From IMG/VR virus record IMGVR_UViG_3300047160_002226, positions 1 through 64,000 of that record: a stretch of DNA of 64,000 nucleotides, one strand, 5' to 3'. A program made the position numbers and the translations under genes. Shown piece by piece: positions 13,828 through 54,733 of this stretch (positions within the stretch are counted from its first letter, which is position 1; the number at the start of each line of letters is the position of its first letter). The notes beneath the pieces are model-generated. The model was not told where the DNA came from and did no database searches. It worked only from the letters and a program-made list of their open reading frames with translations. Source of the stretch: a virus.

Positions 13828-16437
13828 ATGGACCTTAACGGGCTAGGAATCGGTCTCAACACGGATGTAGCCGAAAACGAAGGATCGACTCATCTACCTG
13901 CTGCTGCAGCTCCTAACAGTCACCCAGAACACAGCGGCGCCAAGCACGCAGCGAAGGTCGCTGCTATGGCTGGCGGCGGTGTCGCTGCTCTTGCTGGCGC
14001 TGGCTATCTAGCCCATCGTGCCATCAAGAAGTGGTGGAAGAAGGGCAAGAAGGCGCACGAGTCCTTGTATTCGCGCGTTCTTGAGGCCACCGCTGGAGGC
14101 GATCTTTATCAAGAGGACTTCGATACCGTCAAGAGTCTAGCAGAGAATGACGGTTTTGAGTTCGACAATGACGATGCAGTTTGTCAGTTCATTCTCATGG
14201 GTGTCGAGGAAGCTGAGAAGCCTGAGCCCGCAGGTGTTCTCTCAGATATCTACGGCGCCGATAGCATCAAGTCCTGGTGGCTCGGCCAGGATGAGAATCT
14301 CCTTTACTCCGATCCTTCTCAGATCCGAAATCTAGCTGAGCAGGATGGAGTCGTATTCCCAACAGAAGATGAGCTTATTGAGTTCATTGAGCTTGGCTTC
14401 GACGCCATCGAGGAACACGGTGACGCCTGCCCAGAAACAGGTTCGATGGAAACAGGGCGTCTTGCTAAGCAGCAAAAGAAGGAGCCGCCCGAAACAGGCT
14501 CGATGGAAACAGGGCGTCTCTCCAAGCCCAAGAAGGAGTCGCTCGTGTCAGAAGCGCTTCTCACTAAGATTCGCGAGTTCTTCGCGGAGTGCCAGCTTCC
14601 TGCTGGTCAAGTCGTCAATGCCGATCAGATCCAGAAGCTCGCAGAAGAGAAGGGCTTCACTTTCACAGATCGTTCAGCTCTCGATGCCTTCATTCGTATC
14701 GGCCTCGATGAGACGTATGGAGTTGAGGACGCGGTCACGGCTGAGGAGCTTGAGGCAACGGAGCAGGCCATCGCTGCCATCCGTGAGAGCCTCTCGAAGA
14801 GCGTTGATGCTCTCGATCTAGGGACTATCCGCGAGGCTGTCCAAGCAGCGGTTCCTGGCTTCGAGTTCGAGAACCTCGCAGAGCTTCGTACCTTCGCATC
14901 CGATATCGTTCCTACGTTGACAGAGGAAGAGAAGAAGCCTGGTTTCGTACGCAAGTGGGCAGGTCGTATTGGCAAGGCTGCTGTAGCTGGCGCCGCTCTC
15001 TACGGTGCTCACAGGGCCGCGCAGGCAGGTCATCTTGGCGCGGGTGTTCAAGCGGCTCATGCGAAGCTTATGGGCAAGGCTGCTGGGCACGCAGCCACAG
15101 CTAAGAAGGCTGTCGGCGCCGCTCTCCAGAAGGGTGGCGAGAAGGCTGCTGAGGCGGGTGAGAAGCTCCAGCACAGGACGCAGCGGATGGAGGCAAAGAA
15201 GCCGTTCCCGCTTGGCGCGGGTCGTCCAATGAGCGAGGAAGATAACCAAGAGATCGCTCACCCTGGTCTCCTCCAGAACGTCGATATGCAGCCTCAGCAT
15301 CCAGGTGCAGACATCTTCCCTGGCGTCGAGAAGTCGCATGGCGAAGGTGAGGCTGGACAGCATGTTGGCCCCACAAGCGATACGCTTTCAGGCAACGCTT
15401 CGGGCTCACACGATGCGAAGGACAGTGGTGGCGAAGGCGCTATGGACGGCGGCAGCAAGGGCACAGAAGGCCCAAGCGATGCCACAACTGGTCAGAATGA
15501 CGAGATGTCGATGAAGGAGTGTCCTGTCTGCCACGATCCGAATGCAGCTACAGAAGCATTTTGCGGTCGTTGTGGAACGGTTCTCCCCGTCAATCCGAAC
15601 AACATGGACGGTGGCGTACCTGCAATGGGCCGCATGATGGGTGGCAAGGCGAACACGCAAGCCTACATGGGTCCAGGTGCCATGAACGTGACTGGTCCTC
15701 CAGAGGGAGTTGCTAGCCCCTATGGTGGCGCTCCCAATAAGAACGCCTATATCGGTGCTGGAGCAATGGCCGATAAGGGAATGCCTGGTCCGAACATGGG
15801 TGGAGCTTCCTTCTATGCTGGTCAGAATCCAGCGATGAAAGAATCACGCCGCATCGAGACTTCGCAGCTCGTTCTTGAGCGCCTCCTACGTGGTGTTCCA
15901 GCTCGGAAGGCTATCGAAGAGCAAGGCAAGGATCAGACTTCGCGGACACAGATTGCTGGTGCTCCGAAGGCTGGTGGTATGTCAGCCGCAGCGAAGGACT
16001 CAGTGGCTTCGCACGCTAGGGGTGCAGAAGGCAAGAGCCCAGAGAAGGAAGGCGCAGCACGGGCTGGCACGATGCACAAGGACGCAGAGGCACCGCATCC
16101 AGAGAACGTGACAACTCGTCGTGAGTCGGTTTCTCAGGACTCTAACGTAGCTGAGGCTGAGACGGACGATCCCGTTCCGCAGCAGGTTCCCGTTGGCACG
16201 GCGTCAACAAGCCAGCCTGCAGCACCGAGCGTCGATGCTGTGAATCGCGCGCTCGCACAGAACGGATTCCATCCAATCACTGAGCTAGAGGTTGAACACA
16301 TTGTTGGATTCCTCTCGCAGCTCGGAGAGAACGTCCGCAAGGCTGCTCAGTATACGGGGCATCCTCTGCCGCTTGTGCAGATCGTTGCTAACCTCGCAGG
16401 TTACGGTCCTCAGTACGGCTATCCCAACATTCGCTAA
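13828..16437 (+). CDS. modular putative prohead core/cargo polyprotein
   Basis: Five G-x-x-F modules, two cationic Gly/Ala helices, a Zn ribbon and a helix-G-P-helix tag. Confidence 0.65.
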   Translation: MDLNGLGIGLNTDVAENEGSTHLPAAAAPNSHPEHSGAKHAAKVAAMAGGGVAALAGAGYLAHRAIKKWWKKGKKAHESLYSRVLEATAGGDLYQEDFDTVKSLAENDGFEFDNDDAVCQFILMGVEEAEKPEPAGVLSDIYGADSIKSWWLGQDENLLYSDPSQIRNLAEQDGVVFPTEDELIEFIELGFDAIEEHGDACPETGSMETGRLAKQQKKEPPETGSMETGRLSKPKKESLVSEALLTKIREFFAECQLPAGQVVNADQIQKLAEEKGFTFTDRSALDAFIRIGLDETYGVEDAVTAEELEATEQAIAAIRESLSKSVDALDLGTIREAVQAAVPGFEFENLAELRTFASDIVPTLTEEEKKPGFVRKWAGRIGKAAVAGAALYGAHRAAQAGHLGAGVQAAHAKLMGKAAGHAATAKKAVGAALQKGGEKAAEAGEKLQHRTQRMEAKKPFPLGAGRPMSEEDNQEIAHPGLLQNVDMQPQHPGADIFPGVEKSHGEGEAGQHVGPTSDTLSGNASGSHDAKDSGGEGAMDGGSKGTEGPSDATTGQNDEMSMKECPVCHDPNAATEAFCGRCGTVLPVNPNNMDGGVPAMGRMMGGKANTQAYMGPGAMNVTGPPEGVASPYGGAPNKNAYIGAGAMADKGMPGPNMGGASFYAGQNPAMKESRRIETSQLVLERLLRGVPARKAIEEQGKDQTSRTQIAGAPKAGGMSAAAKDSVASHARGAEGKSPEKEGAARAGTMHKDAEAPHPENVTTRRESVSQDSNVAEAETDDPVPQQVPVGTASTSQPAAPSVDAVNRALAQNGFHPITELEVEHIVGFLSQLGENVRKAAQYTGHPLPLVQIVANLAGYGPQYGYPNIR
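14431..14540 (+). repeat. imperfect 57-bp tandem repeat (PETGSMETGRL x2)
   Basis: Units start at 14431 and 14488. Confidence 0.85.
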
Positions 16438-16492
16438 GTGGTAGTACCAACCTTTCCACTACTCCTCCTCGTCGTATTGCATCTCTTCCGCT

Positions 16493-16536
16493 AGCCCCGT
16501 TACCTGGCGCACCTCCCAGGTAACGGGGCTTTGTAT
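16493..16536 (+). terminator. 15-bp perfect hairpin followed by TTGTAT
   Basis: AGCCCCGTTACCTGG pairs with CCAGGTAACGGGGCT, downstream of the 13828 gene. Confidence 0.65.
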
Positions 16537-16546
16537 TGCTGAGCAT

Positions 16547-17554
16547 ATGGCTGATAATCTGGATGATAGCCTTCGTGAACTCGCTGAGGGAAGCCCCGTA
16601 GAGGAGGTCATCGGACGGCTTTTCGGTGGAAAGCTAGGACCTGAACCTTACTGCACACGATGTCAAAAGCGTAAAACAAGCGGATACGCCTACTGCGACG
16701 TATGCCGAAGTGAGCTTGCTGAGCGCCTGGCTGGATTGAAGCGTGCTGGTTGCTGCGTAAGCTGCAAGAAGCCTATTCAGGCTGGCGCATGGTGTGGTGA
16801 GTGCCTCAACAAATCCCGCGTGAAACGAGAGGATAGGAAGGCGAATGGCCGCTGCACTCGCTGCAATGGAGTGGCTATCCCAGGACAAACGCGCTGTGAG
16901 ACCTGCAAGGCTTTCGATGACTGGCGTATTCAGCAGTTGAAGAAAGATGGCTACTGCGTTGGATGCCATACTGCAAAGGCTAGGGAGGGTAAGGCTACCT
17001 GTGAGCCGTGCTCACGGAAGCGGCTAGAGAACGTCAGGAAGTGGCGCGAAGCTCAGAAGGCGTACAAGGCAACGCCTCTCGGGTTGCTTGAAGTGCAATG
17101 GAAGAAGAGTCCCGCTGATTGGACGCTTATAGGCCAGTACTACCGAGAGTTGCGCAAAACTGATTGTAAGAAAAAAGTAGATGAACTTCTTACATCATCA
17201 TTTGACCGCTCTGTTGATACAGCACTAGCAGAGTTTCTGAATGCTTTCTCATTCATTCCAGCGCTTGTTGAGGGGAAGAGCTATTCGTTCGCTCGGCCAG
17301 CGAGACGCAATCAGTATGTGCAACAGCTACAGCTTCGCCCAGGTTGGACAGCACTCGCAACGAAGCTCGGACAGCCGCTACCTGACGTTTCGGGCACGAT
17401 AGAATCTCTGTTCGTTCTCTTCCGAACACCGACTGGCTATGCTCTCAACATCTCGCACATACGCGGACTACCAGAATCGGATGGGAAGATCCGTAGGCAC
17501 GAGCTATCAGCCGACGTAGCTCAGTACGTCTCATATAGCGAGCCGTCTCTCTAA
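16547..17554 (+). CDS. Cys-rich repeat (CxxC...CxxC) zinc-binding protein with an N-terminal helical tag
   Basis: Four CxxC-x(8-10)-CxxC repeats; N-terminal LRELAEGSPVEEVIGRLF. Confidence 0.7.
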   Translation: MADNLDDSLRELAEGSPVEEVIGRLFGGKLGPEPYCTRCQKRKTSGYAYCDVCRSELAERLAGLKRAGCCVSCKKPIQAGAWCGECLNKSRVKREDRKANGRCTRCNGVAIPGQTRCETCKAFDDWRIQQLKKDGYCVGCHTAKAREGKATCEPCSRKRLENVRKWREAQKAYKATPLGLLEVQWKKSPADWTLIGQYYRELRKTDCKKKVDELLTSSFDRSVDTALAEFLNAFSFIPALVEGKSYSFARPARRNQYVQQLQLRPGWTALATKLGQPLPDVSGTIESLFVLFRTPTGYALNISHIRGLPESDGKIRRHELSADVAQYVSYSEPSL

Positions 17555-17566
17555 GATAGGTGAGAT

Positions 17567-18055
17567 ATGGAACAGTACCACGACCTTGTTCAGCAGATAG
17601 TACGTGGCCGTCCCGTTTCGTCTGCTGTTGAAGAGCTTCTAGGCGAAGACAAGCTATCTGGCGAGGAACGAGAAGAACTATCTGGTGGTGAGTTCGTCTT
17701 CCCGAAGGAACGCCGTTATCCGATTCATGATGAAGCGCACGCCCGCAATGCACTTGCTCGTGTAGCTCAACACGGATCACCAGACGAACAAGCAAAAGTC
17801 AAGGCGGCGGTTAGGAAGAAGTATCCAAGCATCGAAGTCGGGGAATCACTTGAAGACGACGATGAAGAGCCTGTCGAGGAAGCAGATAAGTGGATCCAAG
17901 GCGCTATCAAGCATCCTGGGGCACTTCACAGGCAGCTTGGTGTTCCCGAAGGCGAGAAGATTCCAAGGAAGAGACTCGAACAAGCGGCACAAGCTGGCGG
18001 AAAGCTAGGCAAGCGCGCTCGACTCGCAATGACGCTCGGCAGACTCCGCAAGTAA
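17567..18055 (+). CDS. tag + DUF6582-like domain + basic KHPGALH domain
   Basis: FVFPKERRYPIHDEAHARNALAR (DUF6582-like), an acidic spacer, then WIQGAIKHPGALH...RARLA. Confidence 0.7.
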   Translation: MEQYHDLVQQIVRGRPVSSAVEELLGEDKLSGEEREELSGGEFVFPKERRYPIHDEAHARNALARVAQHGSPDEQAKVKAAVRKKYPSIEVGESLEDDDEEPVEEADKWIQGAIKHPGALHRQLGVPEGEKIPRKRLEQAAQAGGKLGKRARLAMTLGRLRK

Positions 18056-18699: not shown

Positions 18700-19062
18700 A
18701 TGCCATTTGTAAACAAGGAAAAAGATCGCGAATACAGGCGTAACTATCGACTCAAGTACCATCATCGTCGCATGGAAGATGATGAGTATAGACAAAGATA
18801 TCGCGGTTATGCGATGGCTCGCTATGACCGTATGCGAAAGATTGTTCAAGATTTCAAATCTGGAAAAGCCTGTGTGAAGTGTGGTGAGAACCATCCTGCC
18901 TGTCTAGTCTTCCATCATCGTGACCCAAGCACAAAGCTCTTCAACATCGGCAACTACAACAAGGCGGCAAAGGCTATCCACGAAGAGATAGCAAAGTGTG
19001 ACTTGTTGTGTGCGAACTGCCACCTAAAGCTCCACGCAGAAGCTAGGACGGCTGTATCGTGA
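18700..19062 (+). mobile_element. free-standing HNH endonuclease
   Basis: CVKCG...FHHRDP...EEIAKCDLLCANCH. Confidence 0.85.
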
Positions 19063-22013
19063 ACATAATTTCGATCACACCACGAGGCGGTAGCCCTGGT
19101 ACGTCAATAACCATCGTTGGCACTGGTTTCGGTGCCACGCAGGGCACCATTACGATTGGTGGTCAGCCAGTCTCGACCTTCTCGAACTGGACAGATACGA
19201 ACATCGTCTTCCTAGTGCCCACTGGCACTCCAACAGACGGTAACTTCGTTCTCCACATCAACGATGCTCTTCTCGTCAACTCCGCAGAAGAGATGTTCTG
19301 GGTTCCATCGCCAACCCCGCTTTTCAATGACATAGATTACAAACTCCCTGGAACTGAAACTGGTCCTACGCAGAACGATGACCTAGCACGTCGTCTCGAT
19401 GCTGCGACGATCAACCGTATCTTCGACCGCGCAACAGCGATCAATCCACCAGGGCAGCAGGGTCCAGCAGGTCCCGCTGGACCTCCAGGTCCCGCTGGAC
19501 CTGCTGGCCCTGCAGGTCCACCAGGAGCTACTGGTCCTGCTGGTCCTACAGGTCAGCTTGGCCCACAAGGTCTCCCTGGTGCTACAGGCCCAAAGGGTGA
19601 CAAGGGCGACACAGGACTCACAGGCGCTCCTGGCCCGCCAGGTGTAGCAGGTGTTCAGGGTGCAACTGGCTCGATTGGACCGATGGGTCCACAAGGCACC
19701 GCTGGTCTTCCAGGTGCCACAGGTTCTCCTGGTGTCGCAGGTCCAAAGGGTGATACTGGTCCTATAGGCCCAGCAGGTCCAGCGGGTATAGAGGGCGCGT
19801 CAGGTCCGTCTGGTCCCGCAGGACCAATCGGACTCACAGGCGCAACAGGTGGGCCTGGCCCACAAGGAATCCAAGGTCCACAGGGTCTTCCTGGCCCAGC
19901 GGGTCCTGCAGGTCCAATCGGCCTAACAGGTCCAAAGGGTGACACAGGAGCCGCAGGTCCAGCAGGATCGCAAGGTTCCACAGGCGTAGCAGGTCCAGTA
20001 GGTCCAATAGGTCCAAAGGGAGATACTGGCCCACAGGGCGCTCTCGGGCCATCAGGCGCAGCGGGTGCCACAGGCTTGACGGGTCCAATCGGTCCTCAAG
20101 GTCCGAAAGGTGATAAAGGCGATACAGGTCCAATCGGCGCAACAGGAGCGTCTGGCGCTCCTGGTCCCGCTGGTATCGCAGGTCCAGCAGGAATACAAGG
20201 AACAACTGGTCCTCCAGGCCCGCAAGGTGTCGCTGGTCAGCCAGGTGTTCCTGGTGCTCCAGGTAATCAGGGTCCAAAGGGTGATACTGGTATCACTGGT
20301 GCTCAAGGAGCCGCAGGCCCAACTGGTGCTCCTGGTATTCAGGGTGTCAAAGGCGATAAAGGTGATATCGGTCTCACTGGTCCTATTGGATCAATCGGTC
20401 CACAAGGTCTTCAAGGCCCGTCTGGTCCCGCTGGTCCTAGCGGGACACAGGGTCCTTCGGGACCTCCAGGTCCCATTGGCCCTCCAGGTCCCAAGGGAGA
20501 TCCAGGTCCACAAGGCATCGAAGGTCCGCAAGGTGTCCAAGGTCCACTTGGTCCGATAGGCCCTTCTGGTGGTCCTCCAGGTCCACAAGGTAATCCAGGT
20601 ATTCCTGGTCCTCCTGGCGCACAGGGTCCTCCTGGTGCTACTGGTCCTCAAGGTCCAGCAGGCCCAACAGGTTCACAGGGCCTCACTGGTGCTGTAGGAC
20701 CAACAGGCCCTCCTGGTTCGGTTGGTCCCGCTGGTCCCGCTGGCGTTGCTGGCCCTCCTGGTGCAGCAGGTTCAACGGGTGCTCAAGGTCCACCAGGCGT
20801 TACTGGTCCTGCAGGACCGACAGGTCCCACAGGTCCGACAGGATTCAACTGGCGAGATAGCTGGACATCGTCCGCTACTTACCAGATAAACGATGGTGTC
20901 GAATCTGGTGGAACCAGCTACATTGCAATAGCTGTTAACACTAACTCACAGCCACCGAGCGTGAACTGGAACCTGTTCGCACAAGCAGGTTCGCAAGGCC
21001 CAACAGGTCCGACAGGTCCAACAGGAGCTACAGGTTCCACAGGTCCACAAGGACTTCAAGGTCCACCAGGCGTAACTGGAGCAACTGGTGCAACTGGACC
21101 TACAGGCCCCACAGGACCCCAAGGCCCACCAGGTCTCAACTGGCGTGATACTTGGTCAAGTCTTTCAATTTACCAGATAGGTGATGGCGTTGCCTGGCAA
21201 GGCAATAGCTATATTGCCGTCGCTGTTAGCACAGGCTCCCAACCTCCGAGCGTAGATTGGGACCTACTCGCACAAGAAGGTGCTCAGGGTATTCAGGGTA
21301 TCCAGGGTATCCAAGGCATTCCAGGTCCAACTGGTGCGACGGGACAGGGCTTCACTTGGCGTGGCAACTGGAGCAACGTCACTGCGTATCTTGCTTACGA
21401 CGTTGTAATGTATCTAGGCTCCACGTATGTTGCGATAGCAAGTAGCACTGGAGCTATACCAGAGAACAGCCCGTCTAAGTGGGGTCTTTCTGCTCAAGGA
21501 ATCAACAATACTGGTGCGTGGAACTCCGTCGAGACGTACAGTCCTGGCGATCTTGTAACGCTCAATGGGTCATCTTACCTTTGCGTAATCTCTAACACGA
21601 ATACCATACCTCCGAACCCGACATACTGGCTCCTCTTCGCCTCGAAGGGCGATCAGGGTATCCAGGGCTATCAGGGTGTTCAAGGTCCATCTGGTGGTCC
21701 GACAGGTCCGCAGGGTATCCAGGGCAACCAGGGCAACGCTGGTGTTACGGGCGCTACATCGAATGCTGGTATGCGTCAGCAGCAAGTCACGGCTGCGTTG
21801 CTAACGGGGCCTCAATCTTTCACAATTACGACAGCGAACACGCCGATTGCCACAGATCGCGTCTATATGATTGTCGATGGTAGGTACGAGCGGGCAAACG
21901 GAAACATCACGGTCGCTATCAGTGTTGGGAGCTTCCAAGTCAACTGGAATGGGGCATACGACCTTACACCCAACGACGACATCGTCGTTACTTGGTTCAC
22001 GACACCTCCGTGA
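19059..22013 (+). CDS. collagen-like fibre protein with an N-terminal IPT/TIG domain and CBM5/12-like repeats
   Basis: [20 protein letters not shown] (IPT); a long Gly-X-Y run at about 19450-20845; four W-x5-Y..GD.V...G.SY repeats. Confidence 0.9.
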
Positions 22014-32657: not shown

Positions 32658-33754
32658 TGTCTAAGCGAAGTCACAGGAAGAAGAGGCGTAGTCACATGGC
32701 GAAGAAGTTGGCAAGCGAGAGTCGAGAACTCGACCTCACGGCCAAGTCGGCTCATGCCTCGACCGTCAAGACGGGACAAAAGATCAAGCTAAAGCCTGGA
32801 GCTGGCAAGATCCGTACGCCAGAGGAGCAGGAGCACTGCTTGAGGCACGGGCCAGATGCATTGGAGAGCGTGGAGCCTGAGAAGATGACGGTTGGACAGT
32901 TCTTCGATCTTCTGGAGAAGAAGAAAAAGAAGCGCGGCCCGACGAATGTGCTCAACAAGGACCCTGCGACGGATCCGACGATTCGTCAGGTGAACCCAGA
33001 GCTTGTTGATCCAGCTCAGCAAGCAGCGCAGAACGCGGCTGCGGGGCCTCAGACAGCGCCGCAGCAGGGCGCACAGCTCGACCCTACCCAGATCGCTCAG
33101 CAGGCTGCTGTAGGCGGTCCTGCGGCCCTTCCTGACACTGCCCAGCTAGACCCTGAGATGAAGCAGCTTGTAGCGCAAGCCATCGCTGCGCAGCTCACAC
33201 AAGGGCAGGGACCAGCTCCAGTCGGTGCAGGTGGTGAAGCTCCACCTCCACAGGACCAGGAGGGCCAGGGACAGGCTCAGGTAGCGCCACAGCAGGGAGG
33301 GGAACAGCCTCCTCAGCAAGAACCATCCGCTCCAGGTCAACCAGGACAGGATCAAGGTCAGCCTGGGATGGAACAGCCAGGGCAAGAGGGACAGCCACAG
33401 CTTGTGGGGCCAGAGATGGTGGGAGAGCTACCACCAACCATGCCGATCAAGTACGACCAGGCTGGAGCCCCTGACAAGTACACGCTGGACGGACATACGG
33501 TCAGGTGGGACGGACGGGAGTACATCCTTTCCTGGGAACCTGAGAAGTATGTCTACCGTCTAGTGGATCCGATGACGATGATCGTCAGGCTTCGTGTGAA
33601 GCCTGAGCAGATCTCTGTGATTCAGCCAGATAAGAGCTTGGCTTCACTATCGAATGAATCGGTAGCAGATTCGATCCCAGGGCTCGCTCATGGCGATAGT
33701 TTGGCGGATCATCTTCGTCTTCTACTGTGGGACGCACCTATTCTGGTTGCTTGA
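32657..33754 (+). CDS. modular protein: basic arm, Gln/Pro-rich linker, small beta domain, C-terminal helical tag
   Basis: TGATG overlap; C-terminal ESVADSIPGLAHGDSLADHLRLLL. Confidence 0.65.
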   Translation: MSKRSHRKKRRSHMAKKLASESRELDLTAKSAHASTVKTGQKIKLKPGAGKIRTPEEQEHCLRHGPDALESVEPEKMTVGQFFDLLEKKKKKRGPTNVLNKDPATDPTIRQVNPELVDPAQQAAQNAAAGPQTAPQQGAQLDPTQIAQQAAVGGPAALPDTAQLDPEMKQLVAQAIAAQLTQGQGPAPVGAGGEAPPPQDQEGQGQAQVAPQQGGEQPPQQEPSAPGQPGQDQGQPGMEQPGQEGQPQLVGPEMVGELPPTMPIKYDQAGAPDKYTLDGHTVRWDGREYILSWEPEKYVYRLVDPMTMIVRLRVKPEQISVIQPDKSLASLSNESVADSIPGLAHGDSLADHLRLLLWDAPILVA

Positions 33755-38321: not shown

Positions 38322-38686
38322 AGACGTGTCGCGTCTGCCTCAAGGAGAAATCAGAAAGTTATTTCTCTAAAGGCGGAAGAACAGATAGTGGTAAACAACG
38401 TTATCAAACTATCTGTAGCTCTTGTTTTCAAGAGGCTTATGACGGACCTAGACATAAGCATCTCGACGCGCTAAGGGCTATTTGGAAGAATGTCCCATGT
38501 GCGGATTGTGGTGGATGGTTTCCGCCTGAGTGCATGGATTTTGACCATAGAGACCCATCGACTAAGCGATGCGCTGTGAGTCAGGCTAAGAGTGAGCGGG
38601 CACTTATGCACGAAATGGCGAAGTGCGAAGTCGTTTGTGCGAACTGCCATCGGATTAGGTCAAAGAAACAACTTCAAGAGAAATAA
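38318..38686 (+). mobile_element. free-standing HNH endonuclease
   Basis: CADCG...MDFDHRDP...EMAKCEVVCANCHRIR. Confidence 0.85.
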
Positions 38687-39814: not shown

Positions 39815-40273
39815 ATGGATCATGAGATGACACAACAGGAGTGGAACTCCTACCAGGTCTTCGCTCCAGAGCTTCTTCAACACATCCAGCGTGTGATGCA
39901 CGGCACGCCTGTAGAGGTCGTCGTTGGCGATATGCTCCACGAGGATGAGGAAGAAGAAAAGAAGAAGAAGGGCGAAGAGCACGGTGAAGACGATCCATCT
40001 CATCGTTATCGCTACAAAACCCACCTTGGTCGATTCCTTGGCGGCGAATATCACAGGACTGGACGTATCGCGAAGGTCAAGAAGAACATCCAGCACGACA
40101 TAGGGCACGTTGCTGGACAGAAGTTCGCTAAGACAAGGGAGAGGTGGCGCGAGGTTTCTACGCATCGCAAGCAACTTGCTGCAGCGTTCGTCAAGCACCC
40201 GTTGACACACGTTCTAGCCAAGAAGGTCGGAAAGGCTAGTATCGAGGTCATCAAGGGCCTCAAAGGCAAGTAA
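39815..40273 (+). CDS. tag + acidic spacer + cationic cargo protein
   Basis: IQRVMHGTPVEVVVGDMLHE, then EDEEEE, then a Lys/Arg/His-rich C-terminus. Confidence 0.65.
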   Translation: MDHEMTQQEWNSYQVFAPELLQHIQRVMHGTPVEVVVGDMLHEDEEEEKKKKGEEHGEDDPSHRYRYKTHLGRFLGGEYHRTGRIAKVKKNIQHDIGHVAGQKFAKTRERWREVSTHRKQLAAAFVKHPLTHVLAKKVGKASIEVIKGLKGK

Positions 40274-40275: not shown

Positions 40276-40683
40276 ATGGGCAAGAACCTCGATGAAGGCT
40301 TCGGAGCGGTCTATGCCCACTACTACGCTAACCAAGATGATTGGGTAGGTGGTCCTGTGTGGCGAGAGAATCCACTTCTTGAGAAACACATTCGTGCGTT
40401 CGCCAAGGGCGGTATCCCGACGCTCACAGCAGTTGGCCTCCTCATGAACCCAGAACAGCCGCTCCAAGAGCAGCAGCTTGATGAGCAAGGTCAACATCAC
40501 TTCGCAGCTATCTACGACAACTACTTCGTTGCTCCCGCGCGCCGTTACCACGGCGTTCAGAATCCGCTCGGAGCCCTTGATGGCGACCATGATCCACTCG
40601 AACCCTCACCAGTGAAGCGAGCTATTGAGACATACCTACGAGGTCGCAGTGCTGGCGAGGTCGTAGGGTCGATGCTTTCGTAA
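40276..40683 (+). CDS. small protein with LxE motifs and a C-terminal tag
   Basis: NLDE, PLLE and QLDE; ends AIETYLRGRSAGEVVGSMLS. Confidence 0.65.
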   Translation: MGKNLDEGFGAVYAHYYANQDDWVGGPVWRENPLLEKHIRAFAKGGIPTLTAVGLLMNPEQPLQEQQLDEQGQHHFAAIYDNYFVAPARRYHGVQNPLGALDGDHDPLEPSPVKRAIETYLRGRSAGEVVGSMLS

Positions 40684-48239: not shown

Positions 48240-48276
48240 AGCGGAGCAGGCAAAGTCCTGCTCCGCTTTGCTGTAC
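48240..48276 (+). promoter_or_regulatory. hairpin followed by TGTAC
   Basis: 11-bp stem AGCGGAGCAGG/CCTGCTCCGCT; TGTAC at 48272-48276. Confidence 0.55.
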
Positions 48277-48318
48277 GCACATCGTAGCCTGTCTACAGTG
48301 ACAGATACGGAGTTCGAT

Positions 48319-48732
48319 ATGCCAGTTCCAGCCATAAAAGCTGCAGCGAAGCATAGCAGTATCACCACTGCCCGCGCCGAACATCTCTGGCAGCGTGCAA
48401 AAGAGCACGCCAAGGCCCAAGGGATGGAAGGTCGCTGGGGATACGTCATGAATATTTTTAAGAGCAGCATGGGCAAGAAGCGCATGAGGCCCCTCCACAA
48501 GAAGCGTGAATGGACCAAGCCTGAGCAGTGGGACACCCTCAAGGGAGGCGGTTCAGTAAAGGGTGACACGTCAAAGAAAGAGTCTCTCGTGGATGAGGCA
48601 GTTACGGCAGCTCTTCTAGGAGTGCCCATTGCTGACCTTATCGGAGTGCTCCTAGACGATGGCCCAGAAGCTCTTCCTGCCGACGAAGGACTTTCGACAG
48701 GTGGTTCTCTATCGGGAACCAATGGAGAGTGA
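48319..48732 (+). CDS. basic small domain plus C-terminal helical tag
   Basis: GGAG site; MPVP...AEHLW..AK...WGYVM..FK, then KKESLVDEAVTAALLGVPIADLIGVLL. Confidence 0.65.
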   Translation: MPVPAIKAAAKHSSITTARAEHLWQRAKEHAKAQGMEGRWGYVMNIFKSSMGKKRMRPLHKKREWTKPEQWDTLKGGGSVKGDTSKKESLVDEAVTAALLGVPIADLIGVLLDDGPEALPADEGLSTGGSLSGTNGE

Positions 48733-49000
48733 TGTCTGGGTCATCTTCCCAGAGCATGAGAACGCCTCATATCGTGCTGACCTTGAAGTTGTAAGACGTT
48801 GGATGCTGTTGATGTGGAAGGGCGAATGGCACTTTGTTGATCTCGCCCTTGACCAACTCTGGAATCTCTACCACGTCGGATTGAGGATCGGTTCAACCAG
48901 AACCGATGTACGTCCGCTGAGTGCTGCTAAGAAGTACTTCGCGGCCCACGAGGGTCTAGAGACAGTCATCGATGCAACGCACAGAAGGCCGTTGTTTTGA
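48722..49000 (+). CDS. hypothetical protein
   Basis: Overlaps both neighbours by a few bases. Confidence 0.55.
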   Translation: MESDVWVIFPEHENASYRADLEVVRRWMLLMWKGEWHFVDLALDQLWNLYHVGLRIGSTRTDVRPLSAAKKYFAAHEGLETVIDATHRRPLF

Positions 49001-49416
49001 GCCATAGAAATACAAGAGTCTGCTGCAAGTGTGGTCGGAGGCGGCACGCCTCATTCTTTAGACTTTTTATCAAGTGCATTGATTGCGAAGAGGGACGAGT
49101 CGAACCAGAAAACTTGCAAGTTGATGAGGCTTTCTTTGAACGGCGAACGTTCAACAACTATTTGAAGTGCGTGTATGGCACTAATGTTGAGACTTACGAA
49201 CGATTGCTAGAAGAACAGAACGGTCTTTGCGCTATCTGTAGAAAGCCTGAGCTTGCAAAGAGTCGATTGGCTGTGGACCACGACCATGATACTGGTGAGG
49301 TGCGTGGCCTTCTTTGCGGTAGATGCAATACAGCTATCGGTCTTCTTCGAGAGGACCCAGAAATCATAGATCGCGCCAAATCCTACATTATGGAGCACAA
49401 AGCATGGGCGAGATGA
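48997..49416 (+). mobile_element. endonuclease VII-type homing endonuclease
   Basis: QNGLCAIC...LAVDHDH.TG.VRGLLC..CN..IG. Confidence 0.9.
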
Positions 49417-51206
49417 AGCTGCTTATGGAAGGTGCTGGTGGGGCACAGTACTTTTCGCTCCAAGATCTACGAAAGTCGCCTGACGGTGGGCGCACCCTTC
49501 TCCAGCTCACAGAGTCGGAGTTGTCAGCGTTTCTAAATGAGCGCCTGAGCCCGATGGCACCCCCCGTATCGAGTACCAGTACAAACAAAGTGCTGGATGA
49601 AAAAGCGCGTTTTTTGCTCGAAGCACGAGATAGCGACGGCTATCTCTACGTTGAAGGCCCATTCCAAGAAGCTGACAAGAAGAACGGGAATGGACGAATA
49701 TATGAGCGCGGGTTGTGGGAAGCAATTAGCACGAACCGCAAGCTCTTTGAACGTTGTCTCAACGGTGGCGCGATGGGCCACATGGAGCACCCGAAGGACG
49801 GGCGCACCGATCTCTCGCTGGTTTCTCACTTGATCGTTCCTATCAAGGAGAACGCAATCTTCGATATTGATGCAGGTGGCAGAGTTCTCGGGCGTGCCAA
49901 GATCCTCAATACAACTGCGGGAAAGAATCTGCAGGAACTTTTCCGTGGTGGTGCTCGGGTCGGAATCTCATCGCGCGGCAAGGGCTCGACATTCCGTCGA
50001 GGTGGCCTGGAGTACGTCGCACGCGACTACCAGTGGGACACCTTTGACACGGTTTCGACCCCTAGCGTCGAGATAGCAGTTCCTACTCCAGTTGCAAGCG
50101 CTGCTCCCGCTGCCCAGCCGTCTATATCAGCGGAACCTGTCCTTGCAGGAGTTGCCGATTCAGCAGCCCGTAACGGTTACGGCGAGTCGCTGGAGGGGAA
50201 CAAGAAGAACACCAAAGCTACGGAGGCTACAAGAAACATGAGTGGGCTCGATACGCTCAAGAAGCAGGAAGCCCGCGTTCGCGAGATTGCAGAGAGCCTT
50301 GACGGTTCCGACGCAATCAAGCTAGCGGGTGTCCGTGATGAGCTTCTAGAGATGCAAATGGAAGCTCGTCGTCAGGTGGAGCAGGACCCTACCCTCCGCG
50401 ACTACGCAGATGATCTTGCTGGCGCAGCGAAGGAAGTCCGCACAAAGGCAACGGCTCAGCTAGAGAGCCTTACCGACAAGTCACTCACAGAGTCCGTCAA
50501 GAAGGCTGTTGCAGGCAATCTTGATGAGGCCGCAGGCGAGGACGTGAAGTCACTGCTTGCCAAGACTCACGAGCGCATGGAGCACTATCGCTCGCAGTGC
50601 CAGGAACTCGCTGAGAGCGAGAACACTGTCACACGCAGAGAGTACGAGGCATCCGTCGCCATCGCTGATGGTCTTCTCAAGGAATGCAAGAAGTTCCAGG
50701 CTGAGAACGCCGATCTCAAGGAATCCCTCATCGTCAAGGAGAAGGAACTTGAGGAACTTGGCGAGGCTATTACCGCCGAAGGTGGCGTTGTAGATCCTGC
50801 TGAGTTCGGAGTCCTCAAGGAGCGCTACGAGAAGTCGCTACTCATCATCGAAGAGCTTGCTCAGCGTATCCGCAGTGCTCAGGTCCACGACCGTGTCGAG
50901 GAGTGCATCCGTCAAGAGCCGACGCTTGGTCGGGTCCGCGATGTTCTTCTTGAGTCGAAGACCGTCGAAGAGGTCAATACGAAGGTCGGGCAGATGCTCA
51001 AGTTGCTTGAGGGACAGATGGTCTATGTGCCTGTCAAGCCCGCTGTCCCAGCTCCGAAGGCGCAGAGCAATGTTGCAGCTACCGCAGCATCGCTCCTAGA
51101 GTCGCGCGCACAGCCTCCGAAGCCCCGTCCAACGTCGCCTGTGCTTGCTCACAGGATCGGTCTCATCGAGTCCATCGTCAAGAAGAACGGTGCATTCCGC
51201 AAGTGA
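49413..51206 (+). CDS. gp21: prohead protease (T4 gp21-like) fused to a coiled-coil scaffold-like region
   Basis: EGPFQEAD.KNGNGRIY, GHMEHP, VSHLI, GRAKILNT..G, GISSRG.GS and D.VS.PS. MKLLME start overlaps the EndoVII stop (ATGA). About 330 aa of acidic coil follow. Confidence 0.9.
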   Translation: MKLLMEGAGGAQYFSLQDLRKSPDGGRTLLQLTESELSAFLNERLSPMAPPVSSTSTNKVLDEKARFLLEARDSDGYLYVEGPFQEADKKNGNGRIYERGLWEAISTNRKLFERCLNGGAMGHMEHPKDGRTDLSLVSHLIVPIKENAIFDIDAGGRVLGRAKILNTTAGKNLQELFRGGARVGISSRGKGSTFRRGGLEYVARDYQWDTFDTVSTPSVEIAVPTPVASAAPAAQPSISAEPVLAGVADSAARNGYGESLEGNKKNTKATEATRNMSGLDTLKKQEARVREIAESLDGSDAIKLAGVRDELLEMQMEARRQVEQDPTLRDYADDLAGAAKEVRTKATAQLESLTDKSLTESVKKAVAGNLDEAAGEDVKSLLAKTHERMEHYRSQCQELAESENTVTRREYEASVAIADGLLKECKKFQAENADLKESLIVKEKELEELGEAITAEGGVVDPAEFGVLKERYEKSLLIIEELAQRIRSAQVHDRVEECIRQEPTLGRVRDVLLESKTVEEVNTKVGQMLKLLEGQMVYVPVKPAVPAPKAQSNVAATAASLLESRAQPPKPRPTSPVLAHRIGLIESIVKKNGAFRK

Positions 51207-51249
51207 GCGGAGTGAGTAAGCACCAGGTAAACAAGAAGGAGAAATTACA

Positions 51250-52650
51250 GTGATTAGCGCACCCGATGTGCCCGCGCTCATGGATACTCGCGAGCGTTCG
51301 AGCCTTCTAGAGCAGAACATCTCCTGGGGTCGGCAGCTTGCCGAATCCAAGTGGGGTGCTGAATGCCAGGGTCTCCAGGGGTTTGACGCGGCTTGCTGCG
51401 CCATCCTTCTTGAGAACATGGAGAAGTACTTCCACAGCCTTACGGAGACAACCAAGGCCATCTCGATTGGCGACTTCGAGAAGTTTGCGTTCCCGATTGT
51501 TCGGGCAGTGTTCCCGAACCTCATTGCGAACGAGATCGTCTCGGTTCAGCCAATGTCTGGCCCAATCTCGCTTGTCTTCTACCTCGATTTCACATACGGG
51601 AACTCGAAGGGCTCGATCAACAAGGGCGACCTTGCGTTCAGCAGCCTAACGGGTCCTGCGTCGAATGCATCTTACACCAGTGAGACCATCGATGTCGAGG
51701 CAGTAGCAACGACAGACGGCGTCAACACGCACTTCGAGACCAACCTTGCTTGGCTCCCGATTCGTGCTGGCACGGTTGTCATGACAGACGGCACGCTCAC
51801 CCTCACGGACAACGGCGCAGGCGTTCTTGTGTCGTCTCCTGCAGGTGCGTCGGGCACTGTTGACTACAACAGTGGCCGCGTGACGATTGACTACGTCGCT
51901 CTTCCTGCGGCTGGTCTGCCGATCACGGTGACGTACGAGTTCGATATGGAGGCCAACCAGAACCTCCCGCAGATCGACCTCCGCTTGACCTCAACGCCCG
52001 TTACAGCGCGTCCGCGTAAGCTGCGCGCTCGGTGGTCGCTTGAGGCTTCCCAGAACCTCCAGGCTCTCCACGGCCTAGACGCTGAGGCTGAGCTTGTGGC
52101 GGTCATCGCTGAGGAGATCAAGCGTGAGATCGACCGTACGATTCTCAACGACCTCTTCAACGGTGCAATCGGCGGCTCTGGCGCCTTCGACCGCAAGGTG
52201 CCTGATGGCATCTCGTTCACGGAGCACAAGCTCTCGTTCATCGACACCATCGTTGAGATGTCGAACGAGATCTTCCGTGTAACGCAGCGTGCGCACGCCA
52301 ACTGGCTTGTCACTGGAATGCAGGGCGCGTCGATCATCGAAACGCTTCCCACATTCAAGGCTGAGCCTGTTCCTGCTGGCGTCACGGGTCCTGTCCGTAT
52401 CGGCGTCCTCAACGGTCGCTGGGCGGTCTACAAGGATCCGCAGATGGCCGTCGAGCGGTTCCTCGTCGGTTACAAGGGCGGAACGTTCCTTGACGCGGGC
52501 TACGTCTATGCCCCGTTCATCCCGCTCTACGCAACGCCTACGGTCCTGCTTGACGACTTCCTCGGTCGTAAGGGCCTGGCAACGCGCTTCGGCAAGAAGT
52601 TCATCAACGGTCGTTACTACTCAAAGGGCACGATCATCACGAGCGCGTAA
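51250..52650 (+). CDS. gp23: major capsid protein (T4 gp23-like)
   Basis: ILLEN, FPIVRAVFPNLIA.EIVSVQPMSGP, RKLRARWS.E..Q.L.A.HG.DAE.EL, EIDR.I and AGYVYAPFIPL. Confidence 0.97.
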   Translation: MISAPDVPALMDTRERSSLLEQNISWGRQLAESKWGAECQGLQGFDAACCAILLENMEKYFHSLTETTKAISIGDFEKFAFPIVRAVFPNLIANEIVSVQPMSGPISLVFYLDFTYGNSKGSINKGDLAFSSLTGPASNASYTSETIDVEAVATTDGVNTHFETNLAWLPIRAGTVVMTDGTLTLTDNGAGVLVSSPAGASGTVDYNSGRVTIDYVALPAAGLPITVTYEFDMEANQNLPQIDLRLTSTPVTARPRKLRARWSLEASQNLQALHGLDAEAELVAVIAEEIKREIDRTILNDLFNGAIGGSGAFDRKVPDGISFTEHKLSFIDTIVEMSNEIFRVTQRAHANWLVTGMQGASIIETLPTFKAEPVPAGVTGPVRIGVLNGRWAVYKDPQMAVERFLVGYKGGTFLDAGYVYAPFIPLYATPTVLLDDFLGRKGLATRFGKKFINGRYYSKGTIITSA

Positions 52651-52695
52651 AGCAGCGTGAAGAAGTCTCAGCAGTAGTAGTGGGTCTAGGTGGGA

Positions 52696-52738
52696 ACACC
52701 CAAGGGATCGTCAAGGTCCCTTGGGTGTCTCTCTGTAC
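52696..52738 (+). terminator. 12-bp hairpin after the capsid gene, followed by TGTAC
   Basis: ACACCCAAGGGA pairs with TCCCTTGGGTGT; TGTAC at 52734-52738 abuts ATG 52739. Confidence 0.6.
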
Positions 52739-53290
52739 ATGGGAAATCGGCTAGAGCGCTACTTCTCGAATCTCCCTGAGCGCGGCATGAAGCTGAATAA
52801 GCTTCTTATCGCTGGGAAGACGTTGTTGGATGACGAGATCTGGCTCTTGGTCAAGGACTTTGAGTGCGAGCTAAGCGAAGTCTTCGTCAACCAAGAGACT
52901 ATCCTTGAGAGAATAGGCTATAGGACGTTCTATTACTCTCAAAGTGATACATGGCTCAATGCAGATGACAGAACTGCTCTCATGGAGTTCATCGCTGACA
53001 AGGAGAAGGATTGGATCGGTTGTGCTGTAACTGGCTCATGTGACAAGTTCGATAGACTTTTTACAGAGTCCGTTCTTGGTAGAGCCCACAACGGCTACTT
53101 CGTGCGTCACGTCATCGTTACTCTTGCACGAGCTGTTGTACATCCAGAGAGCTTCGACTATCTCAGAGCCCAACCATCTCTTGTAAAGCACGTCAAGCGA
53201 GTCGAATACTACCGTCTTCCTTGTGAGGAGATAGCGCATAGGTGGCTCCAGGGCCAGACCCTCGATCCAAGGCGCCTCTGCTGGAGATAG
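52739..53290 (+). CDS. hypothetical protein
   Basis: Long + strand ORF; start uncertain (52739 or 52788). Confidence 0.6.
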   Translation: MGNRLERYFSNLPERGMKLNKLLIAGKTLLDDEIWLLVKDFECELSEVFVNQETILERIGYRTFYYSQSDTWLNADDRTALMEFIADKEKDWIGCAVTGSCDKFDRLFTESVLGRAHNGYFVRHVIVTLARAVVHPESFDYLRAQPSLVKHVKRVEYYRLPCEEIAHRWLQGQTLDPRRLCWR

Positions 53291-53293
53291 CCC

Positions 53294-54733
53294 ATGTCAA
53301 ACGTGATCCACCAGATGATCCAGGGCGTGCTCTCAGAGATGGCAGCTCGCAATAAGGATAAGGACATTGCCCTCGTTGCCAAGTGGTTCCTCCACAAGCA
53401 CCAGAAGGGCGAAGATGCTATGTCACAAGCGGCTTTCGCTAAGAAAGCTGGCATAGATCAAGCTTCATTCAATCGTCTAGCGAAGATTCATCGTGACGAT
53501 GCGCTTGCTTCGCTCCAAGGTAAGGGTCACGATGCACAAAAGGTTAAGGCGTCGATTACTCCAAAGTACCGCACAGGGCGCCCAAGCAGCAAATCAGATG
53601 AAGAATGGCACGATATCGTCGCAGACTTTAACCAGATGCGCGAGAAGGATCCTGACTGGTCCTACTACGCGCACGCGAAAAGGCACAGTATCAGCTCTAT
53701 CGACACGCTCAAAGCAAAGGTTGGCGAGCTGCTAGGTAAGATCAAAAAAGCTGGCGAAACGAAGCGCGCCAGGGTAGCAGGGCTCGCTAAGGCTCGCGAC
53801 GTTCTAGCAACGAAGCGCGCCGCCAAGAAGAAGAAGCCAGATCCAGAGGTCTCCCTACCTCCTCCTAAGCATGAGATTCCTGAGCCTATTGTCATGGCGC
53901 CGCCACCAATTAGAGCGCCTATGTCACCTCATCCTTCGTTGCCACCTACACCGCATGTTGCGATGCCGCCAGAAACGCACATTGGAGCTGAATACGGTCT
54001 ACTTGGCTTCGCTCCAACGGTAGGCACAAGTCTCAGGGGGCAGATCCATCCACCAATCCACATGCAGCCACCAGCTCCCGTTCCAACGGTAGGAATGGCT
54101 CATCATCCTCCGCTTGAGGTCACGCATAAGGTTGATCCTCTTGCAACACTTGATCTTTGGACGCGCCCATATAGCCACACTACGATAGAGGAGCCACGCG
54201 CACCAGAAGATGTCATAAGAGCCCATCTCCAGCAACCAGGACCAGAGCTTCCCCACCACGAGCCTTTGCGCAAGCAGCTTGCTAAGGTAACAGGTGAGAA
54301 AGCTCCTCTCCGTGGCTGGAAGTTTCCTGAGAGAAAGCCTCGTGTCCTTCTCATCGGTGGCACATCCAGTGTGCCTGAGTGGGCAAAGGATCGTTTTGAA
54401 CTCCTTGTCATCGATGGTACAGCTTCGGGCCGTATGGAATCTTCGGCTTACAACAAGATCTTGAAGTTCCATCCAGACCTCATTCTTAGTAACAAGCAGA
54501 TACGTCCGACGCTAAGAGAGCCAGTCAAGACCGCCGCCGATTACATCGACAAGCCTTACGTTCACTCGTTCCAAGGAAGCTGGTCACAGGCGTTTCACAC
54601 GGCGGCTGATCGTTACCGCCTTGAGTGGGTCACTGCAGCATCAGAAGAGAACGAAAGTCTGAAAGACGCGATTTACGATGTCATCAAGAATGGCTCGATA
54701 CACGGAGCTATCTCTGATATACTTCGATCATAG
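53294..54733 (+). CDS. HTH + Pro-rich linker + DUF2325-like domain + C-terminal tag
   Basis: MSQAAFAKKAGIDQASFNRL (HTH); RVLLIGG...PDLIL...KPYVH (DUF2325-like); ESLKDAIYDVIKNGSIHGAISDIL. Confidence 0.6.
   Translation: MSNVIHQMIQGVLSEMAARNKDKDIALVAKWFLHKHQKGEDAMSQAAFAKKAGIDQASFNRLAKIHRDDALASLQGKGHDAQKVKASITPKYRTGRPSSKSDEEWHDIVADFNQMREKDPDWSYYAHAKRHSISSIDTLKAKVGELLGKIKKAGETKRARVAGLAKARDVLATKRAAKKKKPDPEVSLPPPKHEIPEPIVMAPPPIRAPMSPHPSLPPTPHVAMPPETHIGAEYGLLGFAPTVGTSLRGQIHPPIHMQPPAPVPTVGMAHHPPLEVTHKVDPLATLDLWTRPYSHTTIEEPRAPEDVIRAHLQQPGPELPHHEPLRKQLAKVTGEKAPLRGWKFPERKPRVLLIGGTSSVPEWAKDRFELLVIDGTASGRMESSAYNKILKFHPDLILSNKQIRPTLREPVKTAADYIDKPYVHSFQGSWSQAFHTAADRYRLEWVTAASEENESLKDAIYDVIKNGSIHGAISDILRS

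What the first reader, a model, noticed from the sequence alone, without database searches (positions are those of the whole stretch)
15862..54733. Tag module 2: a helix-G-x-P/S-helix motif shared by eight otherwise unrelated proteins
Seen: LVLERLLRGVPARKAIEE (15862), LDDSLRELAEGSPVEEVIGRLF (16559), DLVQQIVRGRPVSSAVEELL (17576), VADSIPGLAHGDSLADHLRLLL (33656), LLQHIQRVMHGTPVEVVVGDML (39869), VKRAIETYLRGRSAGEVVGSML (40612), LVDEAVTAALLGVPIADLIGVLL (48580) and LKDAIYDVIKNGSIHGAISDIL (54653). Seven are at or near a terminus, and several follow ES. The attached cargoes differ completely. Inference: a portable capsid-targeting signal usable at either end, unlike the N-terminal-only T4 leader, and possibly useful for loading proteins into capsids.
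Basis: partly seen in the sequence, partly recalled or inferred. Interest (0 to 1): 0.8.

Follow-up and report, generated by a model that had tools for sequence, protein, structure and literature searches.

The report
Shared terminal tag on phage proteins
Six otherwise unrelated proteins of an uncultured phage with a T4-type head carry the same 25-residue two-helix tag at one end, and because related phages carry it as an N-terminal leader ending in a T4-type protease cut site, it is most likely a signal that loads proteins into the capsid.

Summary
All eight peptides exist in plus-strand ORFs, within 0-6 nt of the stated coordinates. Six are a real module: 16547, 17567, 39815 (N-terminal) and 40276, 48268, 53294 (C-terminal). 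The copies at 15868 and 33662 are no better than random peptides.

A position-blind search of the proteome recovered five copies. A profile built only from other phages' proteins matched the window profile (hhalign P 5e-7; 200 permuted controls scored far lower). It also placed six peptides above 498-500 of 500 random 22-mers.

In relatives the module is an N-terminal leader on basic Gly-zipper and HExxH proteins encoded beside the major capsid gene. It always ends in L/I-x-E. The genome encodes a gp21-type (S77) prohead protease and a gp23-type capsid protein with four conserved L-x-E sites in its first 66 residues.

The best reading is a T4 CTS-like capsid-targeting propeptide that is longer, folds as helix-turn-helix, and occurs at either end. 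Packaging and cleavage are inferred, not shown. It is a new variant of a known kind. Another window of this scan (e1-5956963) had already noted the motif on this same genome.

The parts
16550..16624 (+). Tag copy at the N-terminus (aa 2-26) of a 335-aa basic multi-Zn-ribbon protein (ORF 16547-17554). No L-x-E directly after the tag.
   Evidence: De novo set. Score 15.6 against the external leader profile, beaten by 0 of 500 random peptides. The protein has no homolog among 5.8e9 proteins.
17567..17647 (+). Tag copy at the N-terminus (aa 1-25) of a 162-aa DUF6582 protein (ORF 17567-18055), followed directly by L-G-E (aa 25-27).
   Evidence: score 16.7, 0/500. AF2 model with pLDDT 81: helix 2-12, turn 13-16, helix 17-24, then a linker. 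An 85%-identical ortholog, P0002, keeps the tag, while other DUF6582 homologs lack it.
39863..39943 (+). Tag copy near the N-terminus (aa 17-41) of a 152-aa basic ORFan (ORF 39815-40273), followed directly by L-H-E (aa 41-43) and an acidic/lysine-rich linker.
   Evidence: score 13.4, 2/500. A low-confidence AF2 model gives helix 18-28, turn, helix 33-41. No homolog found.
40606..40680 (+). Tag copy forming the last 25 residues of a 135-aa acidic protein (ORF 40276-40683). This is the only basic copy of the tag.
   Evidence: score 17.4, 0/500; charge.
48580..48660 (+). Tag copy near the C-terminus (aa 105-131 of 154) of a small basic protein (ORF 48268-48732; the start is probably the ATG at 48319), two genes upstream of the prohead protease. 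It is preceded by ES, and a 24-residue tail overlaps the next gene (48659-49000).
   Evidence: Top hit of the independent leader HMM in the proteome, E 0.028. Score 18.7, 0/500. Coding score.
54650..54727 (+). Tag copy at the C-terminus (aa 453-478 of 479) of a basic protein (ORF 53294-54733), two genes downstream of the capsid gene and preceded by ES.
   Evidence: Score 14.0, 0/500. Alignment. The gene occupies the slot that holds the leader-bearing HExxH gene in L001 and L002.
15868..15921 (+). Not supported as a member.
   Evidence: Best non-seed hit of the five-copy HMM, but only E 0.18. Scores 7.8-8.8 against the external profile, beaten by 70 of 500 random peptides. Score -1.1 bits with the 14-sequence HMM.
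33662..33727 (+). Not supported as a member.
   Evidence: Not recovered by the leave-one-out HMM. Scores 6.5-7.6, beaten by 146 of 500 random peptides.
11810..11851 (+). Possible half copy (first helix only), internal in the 744-aa protein 10997-13231 (aa 272-285).
   Evidence: Next-best hit of the 14-sequence HMM, E 0.42. hhalign score 17.9, but over 15 columns only. Unconfirmed.
49323..51206 (+). Prohead protease of the T4 gp21 type, with a C-terminal extension of about 400 residues. It is the inferred enzyme that removes the tags.
   Evidence: Pfam Peptidase_S77, E 1.3e-9. PHROG head maturation protease, E 1.9e-33. Homologs lie next to the capsid gene in relatives.
51250..52650 (+). Major capsid protein of the T4 gp23 type. 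Its first 66 residues hold four L-x-E sites that are conserved in four relatives.
   Evidence: Pfam Gp23, E 3.4e-69. L-x-E sites at aa 19-21, 30-32, 53-55 and 64-66.

Best explanation
The module is about 25 residues long and usually acidic. It is an amphipathic helix-turn-helix: helix, then a G-x-P/S turn, then a helix ending in a hydrophobic pair. It acts as a detachable address label on proteins that are otherwise unrelated. By analogy with the capsid targeting sequences (CTS) of T4 internal proteins, I infer three steps. First, the tag binds a component of the assembling prohead core or the inner face of the gp23-type shell. Second, it brings its mostly basic cargo into the prohead. Third, at least in N-terminal copies, the gp21-type protease cuts it off after the Glu of the L/I-x-E that follows the second helix. 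Shown here: the module is real, it is conserved in other phages on different cargo, and it occurs at N-terminal, C-terminal and junction positions. Also shown: external copies end in L/I-x-E, and the genome has S77 protease and gp23-type capsid genes. Inferred: binding, packaging and cleavage.
For: Reality of the module: de novo set, with shuffles. hhalign of the window profile against 8 external leaders gives Prob 93.8, P 1.8e-7, over 24 ungapped columns. Against 6 leaders that were chosen without reference to the motif it gives P 4.8e-7. The best of 200 column-permuted controls scores 13.1 against 28.1 for the real pair, and the reversed profile scores 10.0. An HMM built from external leaders only puts all five core copies in the top 10 of 131 proteins, each at the motif position. 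Structure: AF2 gives helix, four-residue turn, helix at pLDDT about 80. Link to heads: in L001 and L002/L011 the leader-bearing HExxH gene lies between the capsid gene and the head-tail adaptor homolog. The window's 53294 gene fills the same slot, and 48268 lies two genes before the protease. Several DUF6582 homologs of the 17567 cargo are fused to an XkdF-type prohead protease domain, PF14550. Link to processing: all 8 external leaders and the internal copy in L002 end in L/I-x-E. The window's 17567 and 39815 copies are followed at once by L-x-E. S77 protease and Gp23 domains are present, and the capsid protein's first 66 residues hold four conserved L-x-E sites. This matches T4, where gp21 removes 65 residues from gp23 and short N-terminal peptides from the internal proteins (PMC9958956). 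Charge pattern: acidic tag and basic cargo, pI 9.5-11.3, in 4 of 6 window proteins and all 6 external ones, as with the basic T4 internal proteins described in PMC9026906.
Against: No proteomic, structural or genetic data exist for this uncultured phage, and every cargo is of unknown function. The three C-terminal copies have no canonical L/I-x-E upstream, and the N-terminal copy at 16547 has none downstream. The genes at 16547 and 17567 lie next to tail-fibre genes, not head genes. The portal gene is about 50 kb from the capsid gene, so gene position is a weak guide. No similarity to the T4 CTS itself was tested.
Confidence: 0.5

Rival explanations
1. The tag is a general docking or oligomerisation hairpin. 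It binds some shared partner unrelated to capsid loading, for example an assembly chaperone, a tail or fibre component, or another copy of itself.
For: It is a short amphipathic helix-turn-helix at either end. Copies at 16547 and 17567 lie just upstream of the collagen-like fibre gene. C-terminal copies lack a canonical cut site. All cargo functions are unknown.
Against: It does not explain the invariant L/I-x-E at the end of external leaders. It does not explain the placement next to the capsid gene in relatives, or the basic cargo.
Confidence: 0.2
2. The tag is an intramolecular pro-region. An acidic leader masks a basic or membrane-active cargo (Gly-zipper segments) until a protease removes it, with no targeting role.
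For: The pairing of acidic tag and basic cargo. Gly-zipper segments follow directly after the external leaders. The L/I-x-E end suggests removal.
Against: A masking role does not need a conserved sequence shared across unrelated cargo. One copy (40276) is a basic tag on an acidic cargo. Several cargos (Zn-ribbon protein, DUF6582) have no Gly zipper. Masking and targeting are not mutually exclusive.
Confidence: 0.12
3. The resemblance is chance similarity between amphipathic helices picked out by eye.
For: Pairwise scores are low: the best pair ranks 128th among all window pairs. Leave-one-out E-values are only 0.015-0.08. One of 35 shuffled proteomes gave an equally good set of five. This rival is correct for the copies at 15868 and 33662.
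Against: The external profile matches at P about 5e-7, with permutation and reversal controls far below. Six of eight peptides exceed nearly all random peptides. All the real copies are terminal. The tag is kept in an 85%-identical ortholog.
Confidence: 0.05

Closest known systems
T4 capsid targeting sequences (CTS) of internal proteins IPI-III and Alt (Mullaney and Black 1996; reviewed in PMC9026906, PMC9958956, PMC3012670)
   Same: A short conserved terminal propeptide on a diverse set of mostly basic proteins. It sits in a phage with a gp23-type capsid protein and a gp21-type protease, and it ends at a Glu in an L/I-x-E context. T4 also has C-terminal propeptides, on Alt and gp21.
   Different: This module is about 25 residues against about 10. 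It is predicted to be helix-turn-helix with a conserved G-x-P/S turn. The same sequence module is used at N-terminal, C-terminal and internal junction positions. No sequence relation to the T4 CTS was tested, and its function is unproven.
Long N-terminal propeptides of giant-phage head and ejection proteins (phiKZ, 201phi2-1, SPN3US; PMC5694885)
   Same: They are removed by a gp21-related protease after Glu and are proposed to target proteins into the prohead. Paralogs there share conserved N-termini.
   Different: Those propeptides are 80-160 residues long and the cut motif is A/S/G-x-E. They are not described as one portable module shared by unrelated proteins at either end.
C-terminal helix-turn-helix coat-binding domain of the P22 scaffolding protein (PMC9962691)
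   Same: An amphipathic helix-turn-helix of similar size that binds the inside of an HK97-fold shell and works as a fusion tag for cargo loading.
   Different: The truncated P22 scaffold fragments used as loading tags, which carry this domain, are described as cationic at neutral pH and binding a negatively charged capsid interior. That domain belongs to one scaffolding protein. The tag here is mostly acidic and sits on many proteins.
Encapsulin cargo-loading peptides
   Same: A short terminal peptide on diverse cargo that docks to the interior of an HK97-fold shell. This comparison rests on my own knowledge.
   Different: They are cellular compartments without a protease step. No sequence or structure comparison was made here, so this is a lead only.

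Membership tests
T4-type capsid targeting sequence (CTS) propeptide | The genome encodes a gp21-type (S77) prohead protease and a gp23-type major capsid protein | tested here: met
   Pfam Peptidase_S77 (E 1.3e-9) and Gp23 (E 3.4e-69). Homologs are adjacent in relatives.
T4-type capsid targeting sequence (CTS) propeptide | A short conserved peptide shared by otherwise unrelated proteins | tested here: met
   Six window copies and nine external copies on unrelated cargo. The profile match has P about 5e-7.
T4-type capsid targeting sequence (CTS) propeptide | N-terminal position and a length of about 10-20 residues | tested here: not met
   The length is about 25 residues. Three of six window copies are C-terminal, and one copy in L002 is internal. 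The eight external leaders are N-terminal.
T4-type capsid targeting sequence (CTS) propeptide | The peptide ends at a protease site (cleavage after Glu, L/I-x-E) | tested here: inconclusive
   The motif is present after 8 of 8 external leaders, the L002 internal copy, and the window copies at 17567 and 39815. It is absent at 16547, and no canonical site precedes the C-terminal copies. Actual cleavage cannot be tested here.
T4-type capsid targeting sequence (CTS) propeptide | Sequence similarity to the T4 IPII/IPIII CTS | not tested
T4-type capsid targeting sequence (CTS) propeptide | The tag is necessary and sufficient for incorporation into the prohead | not testable with these tools
   This needs packaging assays or virion proteomics.
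P22-type scaffolding helix-turn-helix coat-binding domain | Amphipathic helix-turn-helix | tested here: met
   AF2 gives helix 2-12, turn 13-16, helix 17-24 at pLDDT about 80. The same pattern appears at low confidence.
P22-type scaffolding helix-turn-helix coat-binding domain | A basic domain at the C-terminus of a dedicated scaffolding protein | tested here: not met
   The tags have pI 4.1-5.8 in five of six copies and sit on six different proteins.
Tag module 1 of the same genome (helix-G-F-x-F-helix repeats, 9788-16329) | Profile similarity to module 1 | tested here: not met
   The module 1 HMM hits no module 2 copy. hhalign gives Prob 0.6%.

The most novel reading that the evidence does not exclude
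One conserved helix-turn-helix tag, usable at the N-terminus, the C-terminus or a polyprotein junction, defines the whole set of proteins that this uncultured lineage of T4-type-head phages loads into its capsids. It would then serve both as a sequence marker for packaged or ejected proteins in metagenomes and as a natural bidirectional loading tag.
Probability: 0.35. Interest if true: 0.7.

Novelty: new variant of a known kind. Interest (0 to 1): 0.6.

Why it matters
How phages choose which proteins to pack with their DNA is understood for very few systems, mainly T4 and partly the phiKZ-like giant phages. A tag that can be recognised from sequence would let packaged proteins be predicted directly from metagenomic genomes. 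These proteins are often anti-defence or host-takeover factors. If the tag really works at either end, it would also be a more flexible handle than the T4 CTS for loading proteins into capsids. The cargoes found here are all uncharacterised: a Zn-ribbon protein, a DUF6582 protein, small basic proteins, and HExxH and Gly-zipper proteins in relatives.

Tried and rejected
1. The profile built from all eight peptides is circular. I replaced it with leave-one-out tests, a de novo set search and an external profile.
2. Pairwise window comparison alone shows nothing: the best pair ranks 128th.
3. A relation to Tag module 1 was rejected.
4. A classical DNA-binding helix-turn-helix was considered and dropped on my own reading of the sequences, without a formal test: the small and hydrophobic residues do not sit at the spacings usual for such motifs, there is no third helix, and Pfam gives no hit there.
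5. Megablast against named phages found nothing. The closest named capsid proteins are only 39-42% identical: Bacillus SP-15 and HSE3, and Listeria LIS04.
6. The proteins at 39815 and 16547 have no homologs.
7. The search for related loci found nothing for 40699-42072, 16547-17554, P0197, P0123 or P0124.
8. tblastn of the HExxH protein against named phages found nothing.
10. Leader-like N-termini of L001 8833-9186 and 9189-10100 and the C-terminus of P0019 looked similar by eye, but scored only 10-12, within the random range.
Full report
**Setting.** The window is the first 64 kb of a 116,149-bp IMG/VR virus record. The record is linear and CheckV rates it 79% complete. Nearly all genes are on the + strand.

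It is a myovirus with a T4-type head:
- prohead protease 49323-51206 (Pfam Peptidase_S77)
- major capsid protein 51250-52650 (Pfam Gp23)
- head-tail adaptor homolog 55335-56063
- tail sheath 58535-61219
- collagen-like fibre 19059-22013
- T4-type portal far away, at genome 103893-105095

No named phage is close. Megablast finds nothing, and the best named capsid proteins are 39-42% identical. Most proteins in the region match no PHROG or Pfam family.

**Check of the observation.** All eight peptides exist in + strand ORFs, 0-6 nt from the stated coordinates.
- Three are N-terminal: ORFs 16547, 17567, 39815.
- Four are C-terminal or nearly so: ORFs 32657, 40276, 48268, 53294.
- One is internal: aa 681-698 of the 869-aa ORF 13828-16437.

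Codon usage supports these ORFs and rejects the overlapping minus-strand ORFs. Outside the peptide the proteins share nothing significant.

**Is it more than chance? Internal evidence.**
- A profile built from the eight peptides is circular.
- Leave-one-out profiles recover four copies as the top hit, at E 0.015-0.08. They recover one more weakly, and miss 33662 and 54659.
- Pairwise scores are unremarkable.
- I then searched the whole proteome, without regard to position, for five windows of 22 residues in five proteins that are all mutually similar. The real proteome gives exactly two such sets. One is a CxxC...CxxC zinc ribbon. The other is the copies at 16559, 17582, 39872, 40612 and 48586.
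- Of 35 shuffled proteomes, three give any such set and one gives a score as high.
- All five real windows are terminal. Only 17% of proteome windows are terminal (0.17^5 = 1.6e-4), and the two chance sets I checked each had one terminal window.
- The thresholds were chosen after the fact, so this evidence is suggestive rather than conclusive.

**External evidence.** This is the decisive part.
- The five-copy profile's best hit in related contigs was the N-terminus of an HExxH protein. That protein is encoded two to three genes after the capsid gene in L002/L011, with an ortholog in L001.
- A full-length phmmer search with that protein against 1.84 billion representatives returned homologs found through their Gly-zipper and peptidase parts.
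- Six of these hits cover the query's N-terminus. Two are HExxH proteins and four are small Gly-zipper proteins of 140-167 aa. All six start with the same kind of leader.
- A profile of these leaders contains no sequence from this genome. It aligns to the window profile over 24-27 ungapped columns. With eight leaders hhalign gives Prob 93.8 and P 1.8e-7. With the six chosen without reference to the motif it gives Prob 92.5 and P 4.8e-7.
- Two hundred column-permuted controls reach at most 13.1 against 28.1 for the real pair. The reversed profile gives 10.0.
- An HMM of the external leaders places all five core copies in the top 10 of 131 proteins, each at the motif position.

| Peptide start | Score | Random peptides scoring at least as high (of 500) |
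|---|---|---|
| 48586 | 18.7 | 0 |
| 40612 | 17.4 | 0 |
| 17582 | 16.7 | 0 |
| 16559 | 15.6 | 0 |
| 54659 | 14.0 | 0 |
| 39872 | 13.4 | 2 |
| 15868 | 7.8 | 70 |
| 33662 | 6.5 | 146 |

That shift explains its negative pairwise scores.
- A 14-sequence profile finds no further full copy anywhere in the 116-kb genome. The next best is a possible half copy in ORF 10997-13231.

Verdict on the observation: six real copies and two false ones.

**Anatomy.**
- The consensus is a first helix with a conserved acidic-x-Ala-hydrophobic start, a turn G-x-P/S, and a second helix with an acidic pair followed by two hydrophobic residues. It ends in a hydrophobic pair.
- AlphaFold2 on the DUF6582 protein, with an alignment, reaches mean pLDDT 81. 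It gives helix 2-12, turn 13-16 and helix 17-24 at pLDDT about 80, followed by a weaker linker and the DUF6582 domain.
- The single-sequence model of ORF 39815 shows the same pattern, but at low confidence.
- Linker-like low-complexity segments flank the tags.
- Tags are acidic (pI 4.1-5.8), except the copy at 40276.
- Cargo is basic (pI 9.5-11.3) in four of six window proteins and in all six external ones.

**Portability.**
- The 17567 cargo is a widespread DUF6582 domain. An 85%-identical ortholog keeps the tag, but more distant homologs have other N-termini. Several of those are fused to an XkdF-type prohead protease domain.
- In L002/L011 a 446-aa protein carries a strong internal copy (score 22.5, P 1.3e-5). 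The copy sits at the junction of two parts that are separate genes in L001.
- So the module occurs at N-terminal, C-terminal and junction positions.

**Mechanism.**
- All eight external leaders, and the internal L002 copy, end in L/I-x-E directly after the second helix.
- In the window, the copies at 17567 and 39815 are followed at once by L-G-E and L-H-E. The copy at 16547 is not.
- T4 gp21 cuts after Glu at such sites. It removes short N-terminal targeting peptides from the internal proteins and 65 residues from gp23 (PMC9958956; PMC9026906; PMC5694885).
- This phage's capsid protein has four L-x-E sites in its first 66 residues, the last at 64-66. All four are conserved in four relatives.
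- The leader-bearing genes of relatives lie between the capsid gene and the adaptor gene. The window gene 53294 fills that slot, and 48268 lies two genes before the protease.
- Taken together, the best explanation is a CTS-like capsid-targeting propeptide.
- Binding, packaging and cleavage are all inferred.
- The C-terminal copies lack a canonical upstream site. Two of them are preceded by ES.
- The pattern ES-[LVI]-x-[DE] is enriched in this proteome, 10 observed against 2.9 expected. It could mark a second type of site, but this is untested.

**Comparison with known systems and novelty.**
- The concept matches the T4 CTS: diverse internal proteins that share only a conserved targeting peptide (PMC3012670).
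- T4 is not strictly N-terminal either, because Alt and gp21 have C-terminal propeptides.
- The differences here are length, the helix-turn-helix form, and the use of one sequence module at either end and at junctions.
- It is unlike the P22 scaffolding helix-turn-helix in charge and in its distribution over many proteins.
- It is unrelated to Tag module 1 of the same genome.
- I rate it a new variant of a known kind, with moderate to high interest.

**Limits.**
- The external leader proteins are singletons from Logan assemblies.
- No locus for them was found in IMG/VR or among named phages.
- Their co-occurrence with the T4-type head genes therefore rests on L001, L002 and L011 only.

Noticed in passing
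window 5345-5815, 6230-6769, 6794-9904, 13828-16437, 16547-17554: Five proteins share a CxxC...CxxC zinc-ribbon segment. It was the only other five-member motif set found by the de novo search.
   Followed up: partly
L002 3338-4336 (= L011 8470-9468), L001 10045-11052: Relatives encode, just downstream of the capsid gene, a protein built of the leader, a Gly-zipper segment and an HExxH metallopeptidase-like domain. The family has 96 representatives at E <= 1e-3 in 1.84e9 proteins, and none in named phages.
   Followed up: partly
L002 2053-3393 versus L001 8833-9186 and 9189-10100: One 446-aa gene in L002 corresponds to two adjacent genes in L001, and a tag copy ending in L-x-E sits at the junction. 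This looks like a polyprotein made of tagged units.
   Followed up: partly
whole proteome; for example window 32657-33754 aa 334, 48268-48732 aa 105, 53294-54733 aa 454, 49323-51206 aa 381, 10997-13231 aa 111 and 450: The pattern ES-[LVI]-x-[DE] occurs 10 times against 2.9 expected from shuffles, and ES-[LVI] occurs 40 times against 24.6. It may be a second processing-site motif.
   Followed up: partly
window 49323-51206 and 52721-53290: The S77 protease has a C-terminal extension of about 400 residues. The part around aa 412-431 resembles aa 154-173 of the 189-aa protein encoded just after the capsid gene (score 49). These may be scaffold-like segments.
   Followed up: no
window 18700-19062 and 38318-38686: Two small paralogous proteins share a Cys/His-rich segment ending in C-A-N-C-H, which looks like an HNH-type endonuclease.
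   Followed up: no
window 27917-30307 aa 700-720; genome 76206-77837 aa 53-67: Two large proteins contain runs of 12-14 consecutive glycines.
   Followed up: no
genome 74644-75042, 75046-76185, 76206-77837 (outside the window): Three consecutive genes share a conserved N-terminal segment of about 20 residues (scores 60-65).
   Followed up: no
window 48659-48732: The last 24 codons of ORF 48268-48732 overlap the start of the next gene, 48659-49000. Homologs in L001 and other relatives support that start.
   Followed up: partly
window 9788-16329: Tag module 1 (helix-G-F-x-F-helix) is clearly real. Five copies in ORF 13828-16437 score 45-66 bits, though those five were used to build the profile. 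Independent copies lie in 6794-9904 (E 5e-4) and 13361-13777 (E 0.01).
   Followed up: partly
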